Assembly: GCA_963665235.2 (NCBI GenBank) | Contig: CAXXLX010000001.1 | Span: forward strand, 288,001 to 352,000 | From: Candidatus Poribacteria bacterium | GTDB taxonomy: Bacteria > Poribacteria > WGA-4E > WGA-3G | Direction of reading: 5' to 3' | DNA: 64,000 nt | Shown: piece by piece, positions 36,760-44,274 of the stretch | Layout: every line of letters starts with the position of its first letter | Position numbering within the stretch: the first letter of the stretch is position 1 | Translations under genes and position numbers: made by a program | Notes under the pieces: model-generated | Database searches by the model: none | What the model was told of the DNA's origin: nothing | The model's input: the letters and a program-made list of their open reading frames with translations, nothing else

Positions 36760-37734
36760 GTGCGCAACCTTTTTATTTTCAGCATACTCTTCTTATGTAT
36801 CGTGCCCTTTGCCTCCGCAAAAATCGTGTGGATGGCCGCCTGGGAAATCTGGGTCATGGACGATGATGGCAGCAACCGCCAAAGATTGACACATAATAAT
36901 ATTTATGACGAACAACCACGTTGGTCCCCCAACGGGAAGTGGATCGTTTTTGGGCGCGAACAACCTAGGGAAACCAATGAACAGAATCACGATCTGTTCC
37001 TCATGAATATAGATGGAACACAGGTCCGCAAACTTACCACCTACACAGGACTTGATGTAAATCCAAACTGGTCGCCTGATAGTCAACACATAGTCTTTTC
37101 AAGCACAAGAAGTGATGCATGGAGTGTTCATATCATGGATGTTGAGACACAAGACGTGCATGAACTCACACGCGTCATGAAAGATCAATCGGCGGGGAGT
37201 GCCACGTGGTCACCTGATGGGAAACGGATTGCCTATGTAGGCAAAAATCTAAACCCCTTCCAATCCGCTATCTACATCATCGGTGCGGATGGTAAAAACC
37301 CACGGCCTCTCTTCCCCCCTGTGAATTCCCTGCACTATTCCGTTGACTGGTCGCCGGATGGAAAGCATATTCTGTATGGCATGGCAAAAGCCGAAGGCAA
37401 CCTGCTAATTTCAAATAAAATCGTCATCCGGACCGTTAATGGACATTTGGTCCAAGAGGTGGAAATGCCATCAATCGCAAAATGGTTTATACACTCCGCT
37501 TGTTGGATGGGAACGAAACATATTCTCATTTACGCCCAAGAAGACCATAAAGCCCCGGATGGTGGGCAGAGTGATATCTATCGGTATACACTCGCCACAG
37601 ATGAAATAGTCAATCTCACAAACTCCCCAATAGATAACGATTGTTTTCCGGATTGGATAGATGATGGGGCACTAGCTGTTGCCCCGGTGAGCAAACTCGC
37701 CATCCGATGGGCACAACTCAAGAAAATCCATTAA
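36760..37734 (+). CDS. Secreted TolB-like PD40 beta-propeller protein, paralog 1
   Basis: Signal peptide; WSPNGK/WSPDSQ/WSPDGK repeats; tail VAPVSKLAIRWAQLK. Confidence 0.87.
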   Translation: MRNLFIFSILFLCIVPFASAKIVWMAAWEIWVMDDDGSNRQRLTHNNIYDEQPRWSPNGKWIVFGREQPRETNEQNHDLFLMNIDGTQVRKLTTYTGLDVNPNWSPDSQHIVFSSTRSDAWSVHIMDVETQDVHELTRVMKDQSAGSATWSPDGKRIAYVGKNLNPFQSAIYIIGADGKNPRPLFPPVNSLHYSVDWSPDGKHILYGMAKAEGNLLISNKIVIRTVNGHLVQEVEMPSIAKWFIHSACWMGTKHILIYAQEDHKAPDGGQSDIYRYTLATDEIVNLTNSPIDNDCFPDWIDDGALAVAPVSKLAIRWAQLKKIH

Positions 37735-37926: not shown

Positions 37927-38901
37927 ATGCGCAAACTTTTTATTCTCAGCGTCCTTTTCATCAGTATCGCGCCCTGTGCCCCCGCAAAAATCGTGTGGAT
38001 GGCCGCCTGGGAAATCTGGGTCATGGACGATGATGGCAGCAACCGCCAAAGATTGACATATAATGATATCTATGACACGAAACCGCGCTGGTCACCCAAT
38101 GGAAAGTGGATCGCTTTTGAACGCGCACAGGAAAGGGAAACCAATGAACAGAACCATGACCTATTCCTCATGAATATAGATGGAACACAGGTCCGCAAAC
38201 TTACCACCTACACAGGACTTGATGTAAATCCAGACTGGTCGCCTGATAGTCAACATATAGTCTTTACAAGCACACGAACGGATGCCTACAGCGTTCATAT
38301 CATGGATGTTGAGACGCAAGACGTGCATGAACTCACACGCGTCATGAAGGATGAATCGGAGGGGAGTGCCACGTGGTCACCTGATGGGAAACGGATTGCC
38401 TATGTAGGCAAAAATCTAAATCCCTTTCAATCTGCTATCTACATCATCGGCGCGGATGGTAAAAACCCACGGCCCCTCGTCCGCCATGAGGTCGCACAGC
38501 ACTATTCCCTCCGCTGGTCACCTGATGGAAAACAAATATTGTATGTCGTGGCAAAATACGAAGGCAGGCGTGTTCTCTTAAATCAAATTGTCATTCGGAC
38601 CATTGATGGGCGTTTAGTAAAAGAGGTGGAAATGCCATCAATCGCAAAATGGCATATAAACGCCGCCTGTTGGATGGGAACGAAACATGTGCTCATTTAC
38701 GCCATAGAAGACTATACCGCCCCGGATGGGGGGCAGAGTGATATCTACAAGTATACACTCGCTACCGATGAGATAGTCAATCTAACGAACTCCCCAATAG
38801 ATAACGACGGTTTTCCGGATTGGATAGATGATGGGGCACTAGCTGTTTCTCCTGTGAGCAAACTCGCCATCCGATGGGCACAACTCAAGCGAATCCATTA
38901 A
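37927..38901 (+). CDS. Secreted TolB-like PD40 beta-propeller protein, paralog 2
   Basis: Same length (324 aa) and scaffold as 36760-37734, with clustered differences. Confidence 0.87.
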   Translation: MRKLFILSVLFISIAPCAPAKIVWMAAWEIWVMDDDGSNRQRLTYNDIYDTKPRWSPNGKWIAFERAQERETNEQNHDLFLMNIDGTQVRKLTTYTGLDVNPDWSPDSQHIVFTSTRTDAYSVHIMDVETQDVHELTRVMKDESEGSATWSPDGKRIAYVGKNLNPFQSAIYIIGADGKNPRPLVRHEVAQHYSLRWSPDGKQILYVVAKYEGRRVLLNQIVIRTIDGRLVKEVEMPSIAKWHINAACWMGTKHVLIYAIEDYTAPDGGQSDIYKYTLATDEIVNLTNSPIDNDGFPDWIDDGALAVSPVSKLAIRWAQLKRIH

Positions 38902-39146
38902 GACGGAAGCACAACTAATGCGGATAGACGGTGTTCACATTCAATGTCCCTGGCGAGTAAAAAAAACGACTTGACTTTTTACCGCTCTTCCGCTAAGGTT
39001 ACCCCATGCTTCAGCTTGGGGATGTAAGCGGCATCCGGTGTGAAAGCAAGGGTGTGTAAAGTTTTTGTACAAATCCTTGTTGTCAGGAAAATAAAAAAAT
39101 GGTATCCTTTCTAAATAATAAACTTGTGAAAAAAGAGAGGATACCA

Positions 39147-40481
39147 ATGTTTAGTATATCATTAGAAAGTTGTGAAGTCAAGGAAAATGCGTCGATGTGT
39201 CAAGCGATAGTGGATGAGATAAATGCTTTTTTTGCGGGTCTGTCTTCTGAAGGGTCTGTCTCGTTAGAAGAAGCGGAGCGTCGTGTTTTAGAGGTATCTC
39301 GTTCGTTTGGTCAAAAGTGTTTGACGTTAGTAGCGTCTGAACAATCGAGTGCGGGGTCGTGCGAAGAGGTAAAGTGTCCTGTGCCTGACTGTGACAATGT
39401 GTGTCGTCGTTGGGTAGAGCGTCCGCGTTATGTGTCGACGCTTTGTGGTTTGATTTTAGTGCCGCGTTGGGTTTATCGTTGTAGTTCGGGGCATACTCAC
39501 GCCCCGTGGGATGGTGCGTCTCGGTTGCGTGGTCAATACACGCATGCTGTAGCAGAGGCGATGTGTCGTTTGTGTTCTCGTTTAGACTTTAGAGAAGCGG
39601 AGTCGGAGTTGTTGCGTCAGGGTATAGAAGTGAGCCATACGACGCTGCATCAAATGGTAGGTAAATGGTCAGAAGGGTTGTGTGTCTCGGCGGAGGTAGA
39701 GGTGCAAACCTTAGGGCTTGATGAGAGGTGGTATATTGAGTGTGATGGGTGTCATACGAACTCGCCTATAGGATATAAGGAGGTGAAGGTTGGCACCGTT
39801 TATAGAGATTATCCGCAACCGGCGGGGTCAAGGGGGATACCATCGGCACGCCCAGATAGCATTCGGTATGTTGCCTCGCGTGATAAGGCGGAGGACTTTG
39901 GTAAATCGTTGTATGCGTTAGCCACAAACAGCGGTATGTATAAAGAGGATATAGAGACGCAGGAGATTGTGTTTATCGCCGATGGTGCCGCGTGGATATG
40001 GAACTTAGCGGATGAACACTTCCTCAATGCTGTGCAGATTGTCGATTACATGCACGCCAAATCGCATCTGTATACCGCTGCCAAAGTCGCCTATGGAGAA
40101 GCAGAGACCGAGGCGATAGAACAATGGGTGCGAACCATAGAACCGCTACTCTCTGATGGCAACATCGCAGAACTTATCGCACACATTCACGCTTTAGACA
40201 CACAGACCCCCGAAGCCGCGGAGACCTTACAACGAGAAGCACGCTATTTTGAAAAACACCAAAAGCGAATGCAGTATAAGACCTTTAGGGATAAAGGAAA
40301 CCATAAGATTGGAAGTGGCGTGATTGAGAGTGCCTGTAAACATGTCGTCGCACAGAGATGTAAACAGGCAGGAATGCGATGGGAAAAAGAGGGTATCGAG
40401 GCGGTTCTCGCTTTTCGCTGTCTGGATAAAAATAACGCCTGGGACAACTATTGGTATCCAGAAACAAAGGTTTCCGCATAG
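39147..40481 (+). CDS. ISKra4/ISLre2-like (UPF0236) DDE transposase
   Basis: YIECDG, FIADGAAWIWN, IVDYMHA, IGSGVIESACK..V.QR.K..GMRW; stop codon lies 2 bp before the inner IR. Confidence 0.9.
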   Translation: MFSISLESCEVKENASMCQAIVDEINAFFAGLSSEGSVSLEEAERRVLEVSRSFGQKCLTLVASEQSSAGSCEEVKCPVPDCDNVCRRWVERPRYVSTLCGLILVPRWVYRCSSGHTHAPWDGASRLRGQYTHAVAEAMCRLCSRLDFREAESELLRQGIEVSHTTLHQMVGKWSEGLCVSAEVEVQTLGLDERWYIECDGCHTNSPIGYKEVKVGTVYRDYPQPAGSRGIPSARPDSIRYVASRDKAEDFGKSLYALATNSGMYKEDIETQEIVFIADGAAWIWNLADEHFLNAVQIVDYMHAKSHLYTAAKVAYGEAETEAIEQWVRTIEPLLSDGNIAELIAHIHALDTQTPEAAETLQREARYFEKHQKRMQYKTFRDKGNHKIGSGVIESACKHVVAQRCKQAGMRWEKEGIEAVLAFRCLDKNNAWDNYWYPETKVSA

Positions 40482-40689
40482 ACTTGTACAAAAACTTTAC
40501 ACACCCTTAGGTGACCCCTAGCGTTCGTAGATAGACTTTGTAAGCACGCCTACAAACGCCTTACTTAGGCGATGCGCTTGTAATCCGAGATTAGGCAGAT
40601 AACGGAGAGGGTTCCTTCGTACTTGTTCTTGTTATTCACAATAATAAATGTGACATAACTTGTAATCTGACGATACATTTACGGTTTAG

Positions 40690-40878
40690 CTATACTTCTA
40701 CACCGCTTACCTGCATTTACGTTGACGCAGGCACTCAATTAGCGGCTGGGACCGCTGCCGCTGCATGCATCGGCGGGGTGCTTCCGACTCCCGCGGCTAC
40801 GCAAGCACGTCTTAAGACATCTTTTTGATTCCGTTCGATGAACAAGAATCCACTGCCACTTAGGGGGCAGAGGTGCAA
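40690..40878 (+). mobile_element. Degenerate IS605-type right end / omegaRNA-like remnant
   Basis: CGATGAACAAGAATCCACTGCCACTTAGGGGGCAGAGGTGCAA resembles IS605 right ends (GAAG.AAGAATCCC...TTAG...GTCAA); no ORF. Confidence 0.4.
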
Positions 40879-40913
40879 ATAACGCTCACAGAAATCAAAA
40901 TGTGTTTACAGTT

Positions 40914-41049
40914 TATCTCATAAATCGTCTACCTGATGCCTTTTAGAAACCATATCATCATTGTAGGGGCGAGGTTGCCTCGCCTGATAAAGAAAGGGCT
41001 CTTATAGTCGGGCGGGGTGACCCCGCCCCTACAAGTCCTTTATGAGATA
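40914..41049. repeat. REPIN-like element: inverted pair of GTAG-type REPs inside an 11-bp outer inverted repeat
   Basis: TTGTAGGGGCGAGGTTGCCTCGCC ... GGCGGGGTGACCCCGCCCCTACAA, bracketed by TATCTCATAAA/TTTATGAGATA. Confidence 0.75.
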
Positions 41050-41134
41050 CGCTCTACTTACCAGGACCAGTACTCTGGTAATAGTGTTGTAGCGGTAGCA
41101 CCATCAGAAGGACTCTCTTGTCCTCCTAACATAT

Positions 41135-41602
41135 CTACGGGAGCCCCCCTATGAATGTAAAGGAATAACAATCATTAATATAATCACGGGGATTGTCTGA
41201 TGCGCCCCTGGGGAGAATCTCATTATAGCTAGATTCTCTACTATCCCAAAAAACGCCATATTTTGTATAATCGCTTGGTTTATCTCTTGGGGATAAATCT
41301 TCATCAACAATCCCCTTTCCCGAACGATATATGGAGGTATCAATCCAGTACGTTGACTTATAACTTTCATCTTTGCACTCGACATATCCGTATGCGTACC
41401 AACGCATCTTCCCTGTGTGCCATGTATAGATTGTGCCATTTGCCCGCATCGGCTTATGTGAATCATAATCACGCATATAATACATAGGGGATACACCGTC
41501 GATACGGTGTTCGTCTACAACAGGTTTTAAATTATGTGAAAAAACGATACCTATACCCGCGAAAAATAAGCTTGTAATAATTAAAAAATAAAGATTTTTC
41601 AT
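41135..41602 (-). CDS. Hypothetical exported protein (transposon cargo)
   Basis: 155 aa, N-terminal signal-like helix, GGAG RBS overlapping the upstream gene end, AT-rich, Tyr-rich. Confidence 0.7.
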   Translation of the reverse strand: MKNLYFLIITSLFFAGIGIVFSHNLKPVVDEHRIDGVSPMYYMRDYDSHKPMRANGTIYTWHTGKMRWYAYGYVECKDESYKSTYWIDTSIYRSGKGIVDEDLSPRDKPSDYTKYGVFWDSRESSYNEILPRGASDNPRDYINDCYSFTFIGGLP

Positions 41603-41608
41603 GATAAG

Positions 41609-42385
41609 TCACTCCTTATTTAAACCTAAGAATTGATACGGTTCAATTGCATTATTTGCATCAATAACTTTGATATGTCCTGGGATGTCCTCAACCTTGA
41701 TTCGCAAGGGCTCAAAGTCATCCGGCACCACGAATCCCGGCTCAAGGGCGACTTGGAATTTCTGTTGGCGTATAGCCTCTAGGGTCTGGCCATCGTCAGG
41801 ATGTCCGGATGTGAACGTTATATATCCCTCAGAATCAGTTCTAATATACATAGTGCCTTTAATAGTAGGAACGAGTAACCGATCTGGTGGAATATATCCT
41901 ATACCTTCAACGTCGTAACCTTGTTCTAATAGCTTTATCCATACGCGTATTGCTAATTCGTCTTCAGCGGTGAGAGTATGCCATGCATCCTTCCATCCGG
42001 TTGGGAGCTTTGGGTATGGTCCAAACCCATAAGGTGAAACACGGACTTCGGTTTTTTCCGTTTCCTGCGTTTGTTCCATCAGGTTTGGATGGATTTTGCT
42101 GGGTGCAGCATCTGCCTTCCCTGCTTCATCGGTTGTTTCCATCCTTCGTTTCTCTGCGGGAGGCGCTGCGCTTTCCACAAGTGCATCAGTGGTCGGTTTC
42201 GCATTGCGGCCTGCCTCTACTTTTTGGGCGGGTTCCGCTTGGTGGCGCAGTTCAGCATTGTCTGCTGCTTGTTGTTCGTAGGGTGCCAGCTCGTGTTGGT
42301 ACCAGACGTAACAAGCAATACCGAAAACAATCAGGAAACAAAACCCCCCGATGATCCATCGGTTTGTAAAATAGTCTTGTGGCAT
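41609..42385 (-). CDS. Hypothetical membrane-anchored protein (transposon cargo)
   Basis: GGAGG RBS before ATG 42385; single N-terminal TM helix, low-complexity linker, VSPYGFGPYP motif. Confidence 0.75.
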   Translation of the reverse strand: MPQDYFTNRWIIGGFCFLIVFGIACYVWYQHELAPYEQQAADNAELRHQAEPAQKVEAGRNAKPTTDALVESAAPPAEKRRMETTDEAGKADAAPSKIHPNLMEQTQETEKTEVRVSPYGFGPYPKLPTGWKDAWHTLTAEDELAIRVWIKLLEQGYDVEGIGYIPPDRLLVPTIKGTMYIRTDSEGYITFTSGHPDDGQTLEAIRQQKFQVALEPGFVVPDDFEPLRIKVEDIPGHIKVIDANNAIEPYQFLGLNKE

Positions 42386-43038
42386 TTTGATACCTCCAAA
42401 TCCGTTATGGGATGCCATTGATACGAAGCTGTAGACAATGTTTATGTCGTGAGCAATATTTTCATACATAATACATTATCCGCCTACCCTTTTTTTCAAA
42501 AGGTATTATTAATTACTAAAGTTTGGACAATTTGTCTGAGTTTGCTGAGAAGGACGGAGATTTATTCATCTATTTACCGCGTCCGGGTAGTACATCGTAC
42601 CTCTCCTGATTTAACAAGTGCCCGTGTTTGAAAGCATAGCATCAGACCGAAGTGAGCACAGCTTGCTACCTCTGATGCACCCGTGTGCTAGAGAACGAGC
42701 AGAATCTATCAGATATTTTCCAAACTTTCACTTTATTACTTTAATAATTATACACACAATTGCATCTTTTGTCAATTTTTTTACGATTTTTTCCAAAAAA
42801 TGTGTCTTTTGTGCTTTCCGTGATTCCGACAGACAATACACACATCCTTTTCACAAATGCGTAGCTGTTAGCAACAACCCTCTTTTTCAGCGTTCTCTGT
42901 GTGCTCTGTGCCTTCCGCGATTTGCGGCGTACTCGCCCAAATGCGACGTGCATTCTGACAACACACGCGAAATCCACCCTTCCACCCTTCCACTATCTTT
43001 TGTACAAAAACTTTACACACCCTGAAAGCAAAATAAAT

Positions 43039-43067
43039 TTGACATTCCGATAAAAATGTGGTATAAT
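43039..43067 (+). promoter_or_regulatory. Consensus sigma70 promoter of tnpB
   Basis: TTGACA-17 bp-TATAAT with an extended TG. Confidence 0.85.
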
Positions 43068-43167
43068 GATTGTGTCAAGTTGGTAGACATGTGAAGCATT
43101 GTTGCTAAACAATGTGTCTGCCTACCCGCTTCACATGGGTTAACGGAAACCTGATATTTGATGGACT

Positions 43168-44274
43168 ATGAAAACCTATAAATATAAAATCGGTAAACAA
43201 TCTAATTGTGTTAGGCTTGGCAACTTGCTTGACGATATGTGTCAGGTGCATGAATACTTCCATAAGTGGCAAGACCAAAGGTATAAAGCAGGGCTGCCGT
43301 ATGCCAACTTTGCTGCAATGTGTGAACACTTGACGATGTTGAAGGCAACGACGCATCCGCATTGGAAAGCGTTGCCGTCTCAAGGCATGCAAGAAGAATT
43401 GAAACGGATTGATGCTGCGTATCGCCGTTTTTTCAAGAAGTTGGGAGGCAAGCCGAAACTCAAGAAACGTCATAAGTTCAAATCTGTCACCCTCAAACAA
43501 TCGGGTTGGCAAATAACAGAAAATCGTATCATCGTCACGCTGCGAAAATGGGATGATGGCAGATGGAAGCGCGATCCTGTGCCGTATACCTTTTTTAAGC
43601 ATCGGGACTGGCACGGTAACATCAAACGTGTGCCACTCAAACGCGATGCCTGTAACAACTATTGGCTTTGTCTGACAACGGATTTCACAGATACCGACCC
43701 ACTGCACGCTACAGGTAAAAGCGTAGGTGTAGACTTCGGTATGAAAGACGCTTTTTTGATACTGAGCACTGGCGAAAAGATTCAATCACCCCAACCCTTG
43801 AAACAATCCTTGACGAAACTTCGCAAACTCCACAAGGCACTTTCGCGAAAAAAGAAAGGATCGGCACGCTGGTGGCGGTGTGTCTATCAACTTGCCCGAC
43901 TCTATCGCAAGATTTCTAACCAACGTCTTGATTTTCATTGGAAACTGGCAGACGACTTGTGCAAGCGGTTTGATACCATCGTTCTTGAAACCCTCAACCT
44001 TGATGGCATGAAACGGCTGTGGGGCCGGAAAGTATCCGACCTTGCCTTCTATCAGTTTGTTGAGATACTGAAATATAAGTGTATTAAGCATAATCGGACT
44101 TTTCATCAAATCAGTCAGTGGACAGCGACAACAAAACCGTGCAGTGATTGTGGTTTTCATAATGGCAATCTCACGCTCTCTGATAGACAGTGGACCTGCC
44201 CCGACTGTGGTTCTCATCACGATAGAGATGTCAACGCTGCGATAAACATTTTGCAGGCAGGGATAGCTGCCTGA
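43168..44274 (+). CDS. tnpB: RNA-guided endonuclease TnpB
   Basis: RuvC I VGVDFG, RuvC II IVLETLN, Zn finger CSDC/CPDC, RuvC III DRDVNAAINI; all three acidic residues present. Confidence 0.93.
   Translation: MKTYKYKIGKQSNCVRLGNLLDDMCQVHEYFHKWQDQRYKAGLPYANFAAMCEHLTMLKATTHPHWKALPSQGMQEELKRIDAAYRRFFKKLGGKPKLKKRHKFKSVTLKQSGWQITENRIIVTLRKWDDGRWKRDPVPYTFFKHRDWHGNIKRVPLKRDACNNYWLCLTTDFTDTDPLHATGKSVGVDFGMKDAFLILSTGEKIQSPQPLKQSLTKLRKLHKALSRKKKGSARWWRCVYQLARLYRKISNQRLDFHWKLADDLCKRFDTIVLETLNLDGMKRLWGRKVSDLAFYQFVEILKYKCIKHNRTFHQISQWTATTKPCSDCGFHNGNLTLSDRQWTCPDCGSHHDRDVNAAINILQAGIAA

What the first reader, a model, noticed from the sequence alone, without database searches (positions are those of the whole stretch)
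39041..43067. Three-ended Mutator-type transposon captured 2.5 kb of cargo and landed 16 bp upstream of the tnpB -35 box
Seen: IRL at 39050, an inner IRR at 40484-40506 followed by unrelated sequence (TTAGGTGAC), and a solo outer IRR at 43000-43022. The 9-bp duplication TGAAAGCAA flanks IRL and the outer IRR only. Established: ISLre2/TnGBS-type transposases make 9-bp duplications and insert about 15-17 bp upstream of sigmaA -35 boxes; here the gap to TTGACA (43039) is 16 bp. Inference: the transposase bypassed its own right end and used an orphan end, moving two exported-protein genes with a single transposase gene.
Basis: partly seen in the sequence, partly recalled or inferred. Interest (0 to 1): 0.82.

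Follow-up and report, generated by a model that had tools for sequence, protein, structure and literature searches.

The report
Three-ended promoter-targeting transposon carrying passenger genes
A jumping gene in a sponge-symbiont bacterium sits, with 2.5 kb of neighbouring DNA and a spare third end, as one insertion just upstream of another mobile gene's promoter, showing how such elements can pick up and move host genes.

Summary
Three identical 23-bp inverted repeats lie at 39050, 40484 and 43000. TGAAAGCAA flanks only the first and third. The outer end lies 16 bp from a perfect TTGACA/TATAAT promoter of tnpB. A paralogous unoccupied site shows that all 3,973 bp are inserted DNA.

The transposase belongs to the ISKra4 group (NCBIfam 217 bits, cut-off 205), not ISLre2/TnGBS (72.7, cut-off 200). 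Nine-bp duplications and insertion about 16 bp upstream of -35 boxes are published for this group (PMC3942029). This genome shows both: 19 exact duplications in 242 end pairs, and promoters at 15-17 bp for 75 of 315 ends against 6 of 315 in controls.

The "orphan" outer end is the end module of an abundant MITE family. The genome, a Candidatus Poribacteria relative, holds 315 such ends and one transposase gene. The two passenger genes form a pair that is conserved without repeats in another genus.

Movement as one unit is the simplest reading (about 0.6). Tandem insertion plus deletion, or an IS landing in an older passenger element, is not excluded. No second copy or donor site was found. It is a new variant of a known kind, of moderate interest.

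The parts
38977..39040 (+). Left end of the IS200/IS605-type tnpB element that was hit (hairpin CCCCA...TGGGG at 39002-39021)
   Evidence: It is 92% identical to the unoccupied paralog C1:2193160-2193232. The same hairpin-then-promoter layout stands upstream of other tnpB copies.
39041..39049 (.). Left copy of the 9-bp target duplication TGAAAGCAA
   Evidence: There is a single copy in the unoccupied paralog.
39050..39072 (+). IRL, 23 bp
39099..40481 (+). Transposase ORF (460 aa as listed). The likely start is the ATG at 39147, behind GAGAGG. It is the only full copy in the genome.
   Evidence: NCBIfam ISKra4 217.2 bits against a cut-off of 205. tblastn finds one full copy plus short fragments. 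It is 55-58% identical over residues 1-459 to transposases of other Poribacteria genomes.
40484..40506 (-). Inner IRR, the IS's own right end; the IS is 1,457 bp
   Evidence: Homology with IS relatives stops at query position 1457-1459. A contig of run X3 covers 40316-40928 without a difference.
40507..41134 (.). Non-coding part of the passenger DNA, with a palindromic multi-copy repeat at about 40899-41056
   Evidence: No ORF of 50 aa or more. Repeat hits; inverted repeats I3 and I5. In run X1 an 873-nt contig matches only from 40507 rightwards.
41135..41602 (-). Passenger gene 1, 155 aa, with an N-terminal hydrophobic helix; function unknown
   Evidence: No Pfam or NCBIfam hit. One homolog at about 60% identity (63%, 60%), in G063 only, of 112 family genomes. 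The AF2 model is confident only for helix 2-24.
41609..42469 (-). Passenger gene 2, 286 aa as listed. The likely start is Met29 at 42385, behind GGAGG. It has an N-terminal membrane segment and belongs to a paralog family.
   Evidence: There are 16 further tblastn matches at 29-59% identity in G000. The adjacent homolog in G063 is 46% identical.
42514..42800 (-). Repeat 'A' (11 copies in G000) with a perfect promoter (-35 at 42775-42770, -10 at 42752-42747) reading towards the two passenger genes
   Evidence: No Rfam family.
42842..42999 (-). Subterminal module of an abundant MITE end family (GGAAGG repeats)
   Evidence: More than 100 BLAST hits, alignment, cluster of 34 ends.
43000..43022 (-). 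Outer IRR, the third end
   Evidence: Contigs of runs X3 and X6 cover 42964-43272 without a difference.
43023..43031 (.). Right copy of the 9-bp target duplication TGAAAGCAA
43039..43067 (+). tnpB promoter: TTGACA, 17 bp, TATAAT, with TG before the -10 box. The -35 box lies 16 bp from the outer IRR.
   Evidence: 12 of 12 matches.
43168..44274 (+). tnpB (368 aa), an RNA-guided endonuclease gene of the hit element
   Evidence: Pfam OrfB_IS605 and Cas12f1-like TNB. NCBIfam guided_TnpB 232 bits.

Best explanation
Positions 39050-43022 are one 3,973-bp transposition unit of a promoter-targeting, Mutator-like (p-MULT 4, ISKra4 group) element in a Candidatus Poribacteria relative.

The unit has three parts:
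- an intact 1,457-bp IS (IRL, transposase, inner IRR);
- 2.3 kb of passenger DNA, made of a conserved two-gene pair for membrane-anchored or exported proteins with its own strong promoter;
- the end module of an abundant MITE family, which supplies a third, perfect IR in the right orientation.

The most likely history is as follows. The IS came to lie about 2.5 kb from that MITE end at some other locus. The transposase then paired IRL with the distal IR instead of its own. The whole segment was inserted with a 9-bp duplication 16 bp upstream of the -35 box of a tnpB gene, between that element's left-end hairpin and its promoter. This is the normal target choice of the family.

Shown: the structure, the single duplication, the unoccupied paralogous site, the family, and the genome-wide 9-bp and -35 rules.

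Inferred: that the IS and the passenger DNA moved together in a single event, and by which chemistry (a circular intermediate is expected from the family).
For: - Structure: three identical ends and one 9-bp duplication around the outer pair.
- Unoccupied paralog: C1:2193160-2193271 is continuous across the site with one 9-mer copy.
- Family rules in this genome: 19 of 242 end pairs have an exact 9-bp duplication, against 0.0009 expected. TGTCAA stands 15, 16 or 17 nt outside the ends 8, 19 and 8 times among 271 ends, against 37 hits over the other 37 distances. Full promoters with 3 or fewer mismatches of 12 lie at 15-17 nt at 75 of 315 ends, against 6 of 315 at each of two control distances.
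- The IS proper ends at the inner IRR. IS relatives in genus g3 are 1459-1466 bp, and 5 of 12 fetched loci hold one with its own exact 9-bp duplication. The passenger DNA is therefore not part of the canonical element.
- The passenger gene pair stands in G063 without any IR-like site (6 or fewer mismatches) in 19 kb, so it is ordinary host DNA elsewhere.
- In run X1 a contig with passenger DNA at about 98% identity leaves the window sequence exactly at 40507. The IS-passenger junction is therefore a real, lineage-specific boundary.
- Solo or mismatched ends are plentiful: 58 of 77 adjacent end pairs have unrelated flanks. A second, 470-bp unit, C2:610388-610857, has the same layout of IRL, inner IRR and outer IRR with the duplication around the outer pair.
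- Contigs of other runs reproduce the inner junction (X3) and the outer junction (X3, X6).
Against: - The unit, the IS and the passenger genes are each single-copy in G000. No second insertion of the unit with another duplication and no donor site was found. This covers 40 relatives, 112 family genomes and the metagenome contigs.
- The family is thought to move through circular intermediates (PMC3942029 passages). If that is copy-out, a donor copy should remain, and none does. Only fragments were seen: 108 bp of a second IS copy at C1:3933420-3933527 and 102 bp of gene 1 at C1:1248022-1248123.
- No -35-like box lies 16 bp beyond the inner IRR (the hexamer there is GTTCGT), so the IS's own earlier target cannot be verified on the retained side.
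- Same-site re-insertion (7 end-to-end junctions spaced 8-9 bp) and flank exchange by recombination between copies both occur in these genomes. This keeps multi-step histories alive.
- The laid runs are contigs and may include the sample the genome came from, so they are not fully independent.
Confidence: 0.6

Rival explanations
1. Tandem insertion followed by deletion. The IS inserted first at the tnpB promoter (X-IS-X). A second, non-autonomous element carrying the passenger DNA then hit the same promoter (X-IS-X-E2-X). A later deletion starting exactly at the IS's right end removed the middle duplication copy, E2's left end and part of E2.
For: Re-use of one target is seen. There are 7 right-end/left-end junctions spaced 8-9 bp in G000, for example C1:2653483-2654133, where E2 has CTACGAACA on both sides, followed by a -35-like box. 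An IS-8 bp-IS array stands in G023. The X1 contig that departs at 40507 fits this history as well.
Against: It needs three events. One is a deletion whose left edge coincides to the base with the IS end. Such adjacent deletions are typical of replicative elements (recalled) and are not described for this family in the passages read. It also still requires a 2.5-kb passenger-bearing element bounded by these IRs, which is the very capture it is meant to avoid. No other TSD-bounded unit with protein-coding passenger genes was seen among the 19 (looked at 10 of them).
Confidence: 0.15
2. The IS is a latecomer. A non-autonomous element (IRL2, ..., passenger DNA, outer IRR) was mobilised in trans to the tnpB promoter. 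The IS then inserted inside it just left of 40507. Recombination between the two directly repeated left IRs deleted the stretch between them, including the IS's left duplication copy.
For: Elements of this family do insert into one another. A MITE end sits 16 bp upstream of an internal TTGACA in a second IS copy, and some duplications are made of IR termini. Recombination at or between copies is evident: flank TCAGGTAGG is shared by two IS copies 76 kb apart in G023, and a mosaic junction lies at C1:3933948-3934004. The X1 contig is compatible.
Against: It needs four or more events, with a crossover in only 23 bp of identity. There is no trace of IRL2 or of a second TTAGGTGAC: no IR-like site with 8 or fewer mismatches lies inside the unit. 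No promoter-like box stands at the retained side of the IS.
Confidence: 0.15
3. The arrangement is a product of assembly or of general recombination among the hundreds of IR copies, not of transposition.
For: The genome is a metagenome-type assembly (completeness 92.6, contamination 5.65) with 315 IR copies. 58 of 77 adjacent end pairs have unrelated flanks.
Against: Short-read contigs of runs from two studies cover the outer junction without a difference, and X3 covers the inner junction. An exact 9-bp duplication plus a continuous paralogous empty site is not what random recombination gives. Single crossovers between IRs that I worked through on paper separate the two 9-mers instead of leaving them 4 kb apart in direct order (inference).
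Confidence: 0.05

Closest known systems
ISKra4 group of insertion sequences (p-MULT 4, prokaryotic Mutator-like transposases; Guerillot et al. 2014, PMC3942029, passages read)
   Same: The transposase HMM scores above its cut-off. The IRs are 23 bp, perfect, and end in C. Duplications are 9 bp. Insertion is about 16 bp upstream of sigma-A -35 boxes, with promoters on either side of the element.
   Different: The passages I read describe ISs for the ISKra4 group and simple transposons with 1-3 extra ORFs for the ISAzba1 group. I saw no three-ended unit and no MITE swarm there; the word MITE occurs 0 times in the main text. Its supplementary tables could not be read and may list more complex members.
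TnGBS / ISLre2 family (p-MULT 3)
   Same: The same target rule (15-17 bp upstream of -35) and 8-9 bp duplications, and a shared sequence signature with the ISKra4 group according to PMC3942029.
   Different: The ISLre2 HMM gives only 72.7 bits against a cut-off of 200. p-MULT 3 elements insert in one orientation, with IRR next to the promoter. Here 5 of the 11 TSD units with a -35 box carry it on the left and 6 on the right. There are no conjugation genes.
Tn1721/Tn1722 (Tn3 family), the classic three-ended transposon (recalled; only search listings seen)
   Same: Three copies of one terminal repeat. A smaller autonomous unit is nested in a larger unit that adds passenger genes.
   Different: It uses an unrelated transposase, is replicative with a resolvase, makes 5-bp duplications and does not target promoters. 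This is a resemblance in layout only.
ISEcp1-type mobilisation of adjacent genes by read-past of the right end (recalled; only search listings seen)
   Same: A single IS copy moves downstream DNA by using a distal right end instead of its own.
   Different: ISEcp1 (IS1380 family) uses weak, imperfect surrogate ends. Here the distal end is a perfect copy supplied by a MITE.
Pack-MULEs of plants (mentioned in the discussion of PMC3942029; the rest recalled)
   Same: Mutator-type terminal repeats bracket captured host DNA, with a preference for the 5' ends of genes.
   Different: Pack-MULEs are non-autonomous and carry gene fragments. This unit carries the transposase gene and two whole genes.

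Membership tests
ISKra4 group (p-MULT 4) | Transposase matches the family model above its curated cut-off | tested here: met
   NF033572 transpos_ISKra4: E 4.1e-64, 217.2 bits, cut-off 205, residues 51-448 on profile positions 16-422 of 422.
ISKra4 group (p-MULT 4) | Terminal IRs of 18-39 bp ending in C, nearly perfectly complementary (83-100%) | tested here: met
   The IR is 23 bp, 100% complementary, with terminal ...CCC. The criterion comes from PMC3942029.
ISKra4 group (p-MULT 4) | Direct repeats of 8 or 9 bp | tested here: met
   19 exact 9-bp duplications among 242 end pairs in G000. 5 of 12 loci in relatives have an intact IS with an exact 9-bp duplication.
ISKra4 group (p-MULT 4) | Insertion 13-17 bp upstream of sigma-A -35 boxes, on either side of the element | tested here: met
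   The peak lies at 16 nt. 75 of 315 ends have a promoter at 15-17 nt, against 6 of 315 in each control. 11 of 19 TSD units have a -35 box with 1 or fewer mismatches, 5 on the left and 6 on the right.
ISKra4 group (p-MULT 4) | Transposition through a circular intermediate | not testable with these tools
   IRR-8 to 11 nt-IRL joints in run X3 (table 5c) cannot be assigned to this unit, because all family members share the IR.
ISLre2 / TnGBS (p-MULT 3) | Transposase matches the family model above its cut-off | tested here: not met
   NF033529 transpos_ISLre2: 72.7 bits, cut-off 200.
ISLre2 / TnGBS (p-MULT 3) | Oriented insertion with IRR next to the promoter | tested here: not met
   Promoters lie at the left end in 5 and at the right end in 6 of the 11 TSD units that have one.
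Three-ended transposon moved as one unit | One target duplication around the outer pair of ends, with different flanks at the inner end | tested here: met
   TGAAAGCAA stands at 39041-49 and 43023-31; TTAGGTGAC follows the inner IRR.
Three-ended transposon moved as one unit | The same unit at a second site with another duplication, or a junction of the outer ends in a circle | tested here: inconclusive
   No second copy was found in G000, in 40 relatives, in 112 family genomes using gene 1 or in metagenome contigs. The contig data cannot show circles of this unit.
Three-ended transposon moved as one unit | An unoccupied target site exists | tested here: met
   Only as a paralog, not an allele: C1:2193160-2193271.

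The most novel reading that the evidence does not exclude
In this Poribacteria lineage a single promoter-seeking Mutator-like transposase routinely mobilises whatever DNA lies between any two of its about 300 scattered 23-bp ends. On this reading it behaves as a bacterial counterpart of plant Pack-MULEs.

The 3,973-bp unit would then be a caught-in-the-act intermediate in which whole host genes with their own promoter are packaged. Such an intermediate could later lose the transposase gene to become a new passenger-bearing non-autonomous element.

The 95 different subterminal sequence types behind one and the same IR (67 seen once) and the second, 470-bp three-ended unit would be products of the same process.
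Probability: 0.2. Interest if true: 0.75.

Novelty: new variant of a known kind. Interest (0 to 1): 0.5.

Why it matters
The family, its 9-bp duplications and its habit of landing about 16 bp upstream of -35 boxes are already in print, so those parts confirm known biology in a new phylum.

What is new is the layout. An autonomous ISKra4-group IS and two intact host genes lie under one duplication, closed by an end borrowed from a MITE. If the unit moved as one piece, it shows a simple route by which promoter-targeting Mutator-like elements acquire and spread genes. They would place those genes next to active promoters without destroying them.

The host genome adds a second point of interest. 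One transposase gene serves about 300 ends of very mixed content, in an uncultivated sponge symbiont. This makes it a natural system for studying how non-autonomous elements are born.

The hit also splits the left-end hairpin of a tnpB element from its promoter and gene. This is a clean case of one mobile element disabling the mobility, but probably not the expression, of another.

Tried and rejected
- Donor or second copy. BLAST of the IS and the passenger DNA against G000 gave one full copy of each and only fragments or repeats elsewhere. DNA search of 40 relatives found IS relatives at 65-72% identity but no passenger genes. Gene 1 protein was found in 2 of 112 family genomes, G000 and G063. 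The flanks of the G063 pair have no synteny with G000, so no ancestral locus could be named. The metagenome contig collection gave nothing for gene 1 or for a 21-base word at the inner junction.
- Sequencing runs. Only contigs were available. No piece spans the whole unit, and no piece shown bridges the left junction. The joints 39026 to 43030 and similar have unknown or foreign letters between the sides, so I read them as paralogous tnpB left ends, not as an empty allele. IRR-to-IRL joints cannot be assigned to this unit. I make no claim about habitat or strain.
- Function of the passenger genes. Pfam and NCBIfam gave nothing. The Atlas gave only scores of 0.82-0.83, which are leads at best; for gene 1 the lead is 'lactococcin 972 family'. 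The query began one codon before the likely start Met. The AF2 model of gene 1 with a two-row alignment had mean pLDDT 41, so no fold search was made.
- RNA genes. There is no tRNA and no Rfam family at E of 1 or below apart from a chance miRNA hit.
- The idea that the inner IRR is a later arrival in a long passenger-carrying IS. Rejected, because relatives' ISs end exactly there.
- The idea that the MITEs are deletion derivatives of this IS. Rejected, because the IS's own subterminal sequences occur only 2 and 1 times among 315 ends.
- Three-ended units around IS copies in relatives. None was found in the 12 loci fetched from G023, G013 and G017.
- Literature. Searches for ISKra4, TnGBS/ISLre2, Poribacteria with transposase/MITE, three-ended/one-ended terms and Poribacteria with IS terms listed no paper on such a unit or on these repeats in Poribacteria. 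Only listings were seen, except for PMC3942029 (passages) and PMC8953408 (two passages: a truncated ISKpn19 of the ISKra4 family next to qnrS1). Supplementary tables of PMC3942029 were not available and may bear on what complex ISKra4-group elements are already catalogued.

Full report
**1. The observation**

The sequence shows GGGTGTGTAAAGTTTTTGTACAA at 39050-39072. Its exact reverse complement stands at 40484-40506 and at 43000-43022. A script and the repeat finder (I1, I2, D1) confirm that the three copies are identical.

TGAAAGCAA precedes the first copy (39041-39049) and follows the third (43023-43031). The second copy is followed by TTAGGTGAC. No further IR-like site with up to 8 mismatches lies between 39050 and 43022.

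Sixteen bases after the third copy stands TTGACA (43039-43044). With a 17-bp spacer and TATAAT (43062-43067) it forms one of only two 12/12 promoter matches in the 38900-43300 stretch that was scanned. It precedes a 368-aa TnpB gene at 43168-44274.

**2. It is an insertion, and not by chance**

The window is G000 contig C1:288001-352000. The last 73 bases before the unit (window 38977-39049) and the first 48 after it (starting at the right-hand 9-mer) match one continuous stretch elsewhere in the genome, C1:2193160-2193271. The two matches overlap there by exactly nine bases.

That paralog carries the left-end hairpin of an IS200/IS605-type element, one copy of the 9-mer (8 of 9 identical) and AATAAATTTGAC, without interruption. 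It is a paralog, not an allele. It still shows that everything between the two 9-mers in the window is inserted DNA.

Across the genome, 242 left-end/right-end pairs lie within 40 kb of each other. Of these, 19 have identical 9-mers outside the ends, where 0.0009 are expected, and 3 more differ at one base.

**3. The family**

The 460-aa ORF at 39099-40481 has no Pfam match. It scores 217.2 bits on NCBIfam's ISKra4 transposase model (cut-off 205). On the ISLre2 model it scores only 72.7 bits (cut-off 200). Its likely start is 39147.

Guerillot et al. 2014 (PMC3942029; passages read) place the ISKra4 group in the prokaryotic Mutator-like family p-MULT 4. They report:
- IRs of 18-39 bp ending in C;
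- duplications of 8 or 9 bp;
- for the ISKra4 group specifically, insertion 13-17 bp upstream of sigma-A promoters, on either side of the element, together with nearly perfect IRs.

So 'Mutator-type' is right and 'ISLre2/TnGBS-type' is the sister family.

The closest transposases found in the species-representative genomes are in Candidatus Poribacteria assemblies (55-71% identity in the best segment, 4 loci). This places the host among the sponge-associated Poribacteria.

**4. The rules hold in this genome**

The 23-mer occurs 40 times exactly, 271 times with 4 or fewer mismatches and 315 times with 5 or fewer mismatches.

Reading outward from the 271 ends, the hexamer TGTCAA (TTGACA pointing away from the element) lies 15, 16 or 17 nt from the end 8, 19 and 8 times. 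The other 37 distances together hold 37 hits, 13 of them at 1-2 nt.

A full -35/-10 promoter with at most 3 mismatches of 12 lies at 15-17 nt for 75 of 315 ends. It does so for 6 of 315 at each of two control distances.

Of the 19 units with an exact duplication, 11 have a -35 box with at most one mismatch at that distance, 5 on the left and 6 on the right.

In relatives of genus g3 the IS is 1459-1466 bp long. In 5 of 12 fetched loci it carries its own exact 9-bp duplication (IRs and flanks also). Homology of those copies to the window stops at unit position 1457-1459. The inner IRR is therefore the IS's own right end, and the 2,493 bp beyond it are not part of the canonical element.

**5. 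What the passenger DNA is**

From left to right the passenger DNA contains:
- 628 bp without ORFs, including a palindromic multi-copy repeat at about 40899-41056;
- a 155-aa gene on the minus strand (41135-41602), with a confident N-terminal helix and nothing else recognisable;
- a 286-aa gene (41609-42469), with a likely start at Met29 behind GGAGG and an N-terminal membrane segment. It has 16 further tblastn matches of 29-59% identity in the genome;
- a 285-bp repeat 'A' with 11 copies. It ends in a perfect TTGACA-17-TATAAT promoter that reads into the two genes;
- about 160 bp that belong, together with the outer IRR, to the end module of a MITE family. The GGAAGG-repeat type accounts for 34 ends in one cluster and 32 in the next.

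The two genes are adjacent in the same order in one other genome, G063 of genus g3. There the proteins are 60% and 46% identical and the DNA is 70% identical over 1 kb. No IR-like site lies within 19 kb. They are therefore an ordinary, conserved host gene pair that here lies inside a transposon. 'Exported' is plausible from the N-terminal hydrophobic segments but was not tested further.

**6. The wider setting**

G000 has one transposase gene and 315 ends. The 40 bases behind these ends fall into 95 types, 67 of them seen once. The IS's own subterminal sequences occur 2 and 1 times. The population is therefore not a set of deletion derivatives of this IS.

Of 77 adjacent left/right end pairs within 3 kb, 17 have an exact duplication and 2 a one-mismatch duplication. 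The other 58 have unrelated flanks, with no intermediate cases. Most ends are thus solo or have swapped partners.

Three processes explain such swapping:
- Flank exchange between copies. In G023 the 9-mer TCAGGTAGG is the left flank of one IS and the right flank of another 76 kb away.
- Insertion of family members into one another. A MITE end lies 16 bp upstream of an internal TTGACA in a second, now fragmentary IS copy at C1:3933397-3933527. Some duplications consist of the first nine IR bases.
- Repeated use of the same promoter. There are seven end-to-end junctions spaced 8-9 bp.

**7. How the unit arose**

The IS lay about 2.5 kb from a MITE end in the proper orientation. The transposase used IRL and that distal IR, and the segment inserted once at the tnpB promoter.

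Points in favour:
- One event explains the single duplication and the different flank at the inner IRR.
- Suitable solo ends are abundant.
- A second unit with the same layout exists. C2:610388-610857 is 470 bp long, with GTCATCAAA around IRL and the outer IRR, and TTTCACATG after the inner IRR.
- In run X1, which holds passenger DNA at about 98% identity and IS-like sequence at about 94%, an 873-nt contig matches the window only from 40507 rightwards. It continues for 383 nt into unlike sequence. The IS-passenger junction is therefore a true, lineage-specific boundary.

Points against:
- There is no second copy and no donor, in G000 or in any collection searched.
- The family's presumed circular, possibly copy-out, mechanism would leave a donor behind.

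Two multi-step histories give the same end product, and both also fit the X1 contig:
- Tandem insertion at the same promoter, followed by a deletion that starts exactly at the IS end.
- An IS landing inside an older passenger-bearing element, followed by recombination between the two left IRs.

Both still need the passenger DNA to have been bracketed by these IRs and moved. The capture of host genes by this IR system is therefore well supported (about 0.9). Co-movement of the IS and the passenger DNA in one event is the favoured but unproven part (about 0.6).

An assembly artefact is unlikely. A contig of X3 covers 40316-40928, and contigs of X3 and X6, from different studies, cover 42964-43272 without a difference. 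No listed piece bridges the left junction, and these runs may include the source sample.

**8. Effect on the target**

The insertion lies between the left-end hairpin (39002-21) and the promoter of a tnpB element. Nineteen tnpB-like genes with an N-terminus were found in G000, and only this one has an IR end within 400 bp of its start.

The -35 and -10 boxes and the gene are intact. Expression is probably kept, while the element's left end is now 4 kb away from the rest. This last point is inference.

**9. Comparison and verdict**

As a member, the IS passes every testable criterion of the ISKra4 group and fails two of ISLre2/TnGBS (see the membership table).

As a mechanism, the unit works like Tn1721 in layout and like ISEcp1 in reading past its own right end. 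Both comparisons are recalled, not tested here. It recalls plant Pack-MULEs, which the 2014 paper itself mentions.

I found no description of a three-ended ISKra4-group unit, or of this repeat population in Poribacteria, in the searches. The supplements of the key paper were not readable.

The finding is real and well described. Its family-level claims are known biology. Its specific claim is plausible but not proven. I rate it a new variant of a known kind, with interest 0.5.

Noticed in passing
G000 whole genome (for example window 39050, 40484, 43000; C1:209561, C1:605283): One 23-bp IR occurs 315 times (5 or fewer mismatches), but only one transposase gene exists. The 40 nt behind the ends fall into 95 types, 67 of them unique, so the ends cap very heterogeneous DNA.
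   Followed up: partly
G000 C2:610388-610857: A 470-bp miniature three-ended unit. It consists of IRL, a 381-bp MITE with its own IRR, 66 bp, then a second IRR. GTCATCAAA flanks only the outer pair. A 24-bp tandem duplication containing the 9-mer plus the first 8 IR bases precedes it.
   Followed up: partly
G000 C1:1801112-1807155: A 6,044-bp stretch with four IR ends and an 8/9 duplication. Two left ends share about 25 nt of identical outside flank. Inside are IS630-like transposase ORFs, an ATPase-like ORF and others.
   Followed up: partly
window 42514-42800 and 10 other loci in G000 (for example C1:887554-887833): Repeat 'A', about 270-285 bp. It has terminal inverted segments (AAAGTTTGGACAAT / ATTTTCCAAACTTT) and a perfect sigma-70 promoter reading into it. 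It has no Rfam match. It could be a small RNA gene or another mobile element.
   Followed up: partly
G000 C1:3933397-3934004: Remains of a second IS copy (108 bp at 100%, 57 bp at 98%). It was broken by a MITE end inserted 16 bp upstream of a TTGACA inside the transposase gene. A mosaic junction within the IR lies next to it.
   Followed up: partly
G000 C1:1248022-1248305: A 102-bp fragment of passenger gene 1 at 99% identity, lacking its start codon. It lies next to an 88% copy of the palindromic repeat and behind three tandem 31-bp repeats. It is a recent fragment of a second copy or a captured piece.
   Followed up: partly
G000, 13 of 271 IR ends: There is a second, smaller peak of TGTCAA only 1-2 nt outside the IR end, in unrelated flanks. 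It is not explained by the 16-bp rule.
   Followed up: no
G000 C1:807458-809258, C1:1729981-1730506, C1:3711136-3712436: The target duplications here are made of IR bases (for example TACACACCC). The IR itself, with its TGTACA/TTGTAC stretch, seems to serve as a pseudo -35 target, giving elements that abut or split older ends.
   Followed up: partly
G000, 19 tnpB-like genes, for example C1:4053288, C1:64740, C2:217935: About a dozen share a nearly identical left end with a hairpin, TTGACT-17-TATACT and a leader. None of these has an IR end within 400 bp. One copy (C1:213535) carries a short IR-like insert in its leader.
   Followed up: no
L021 and L024 (G023 C1:2411160 and 2335850): Two IS copies 76 kb apart share the flank TCAGGTAGG on opposite sides, the signature of an IS-mediated inversion. 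IS1 and IS2 in L021 stand tail to tail, 8 bp apart.
   Followed up: partly
window 36760-37734 and 37927-38901: Two tandem paralogous 324-aa genes with PD40 beta-propeller repeats and signal-like N-termini lie directly upstream of the hit tnpB element.
   Followed up: no
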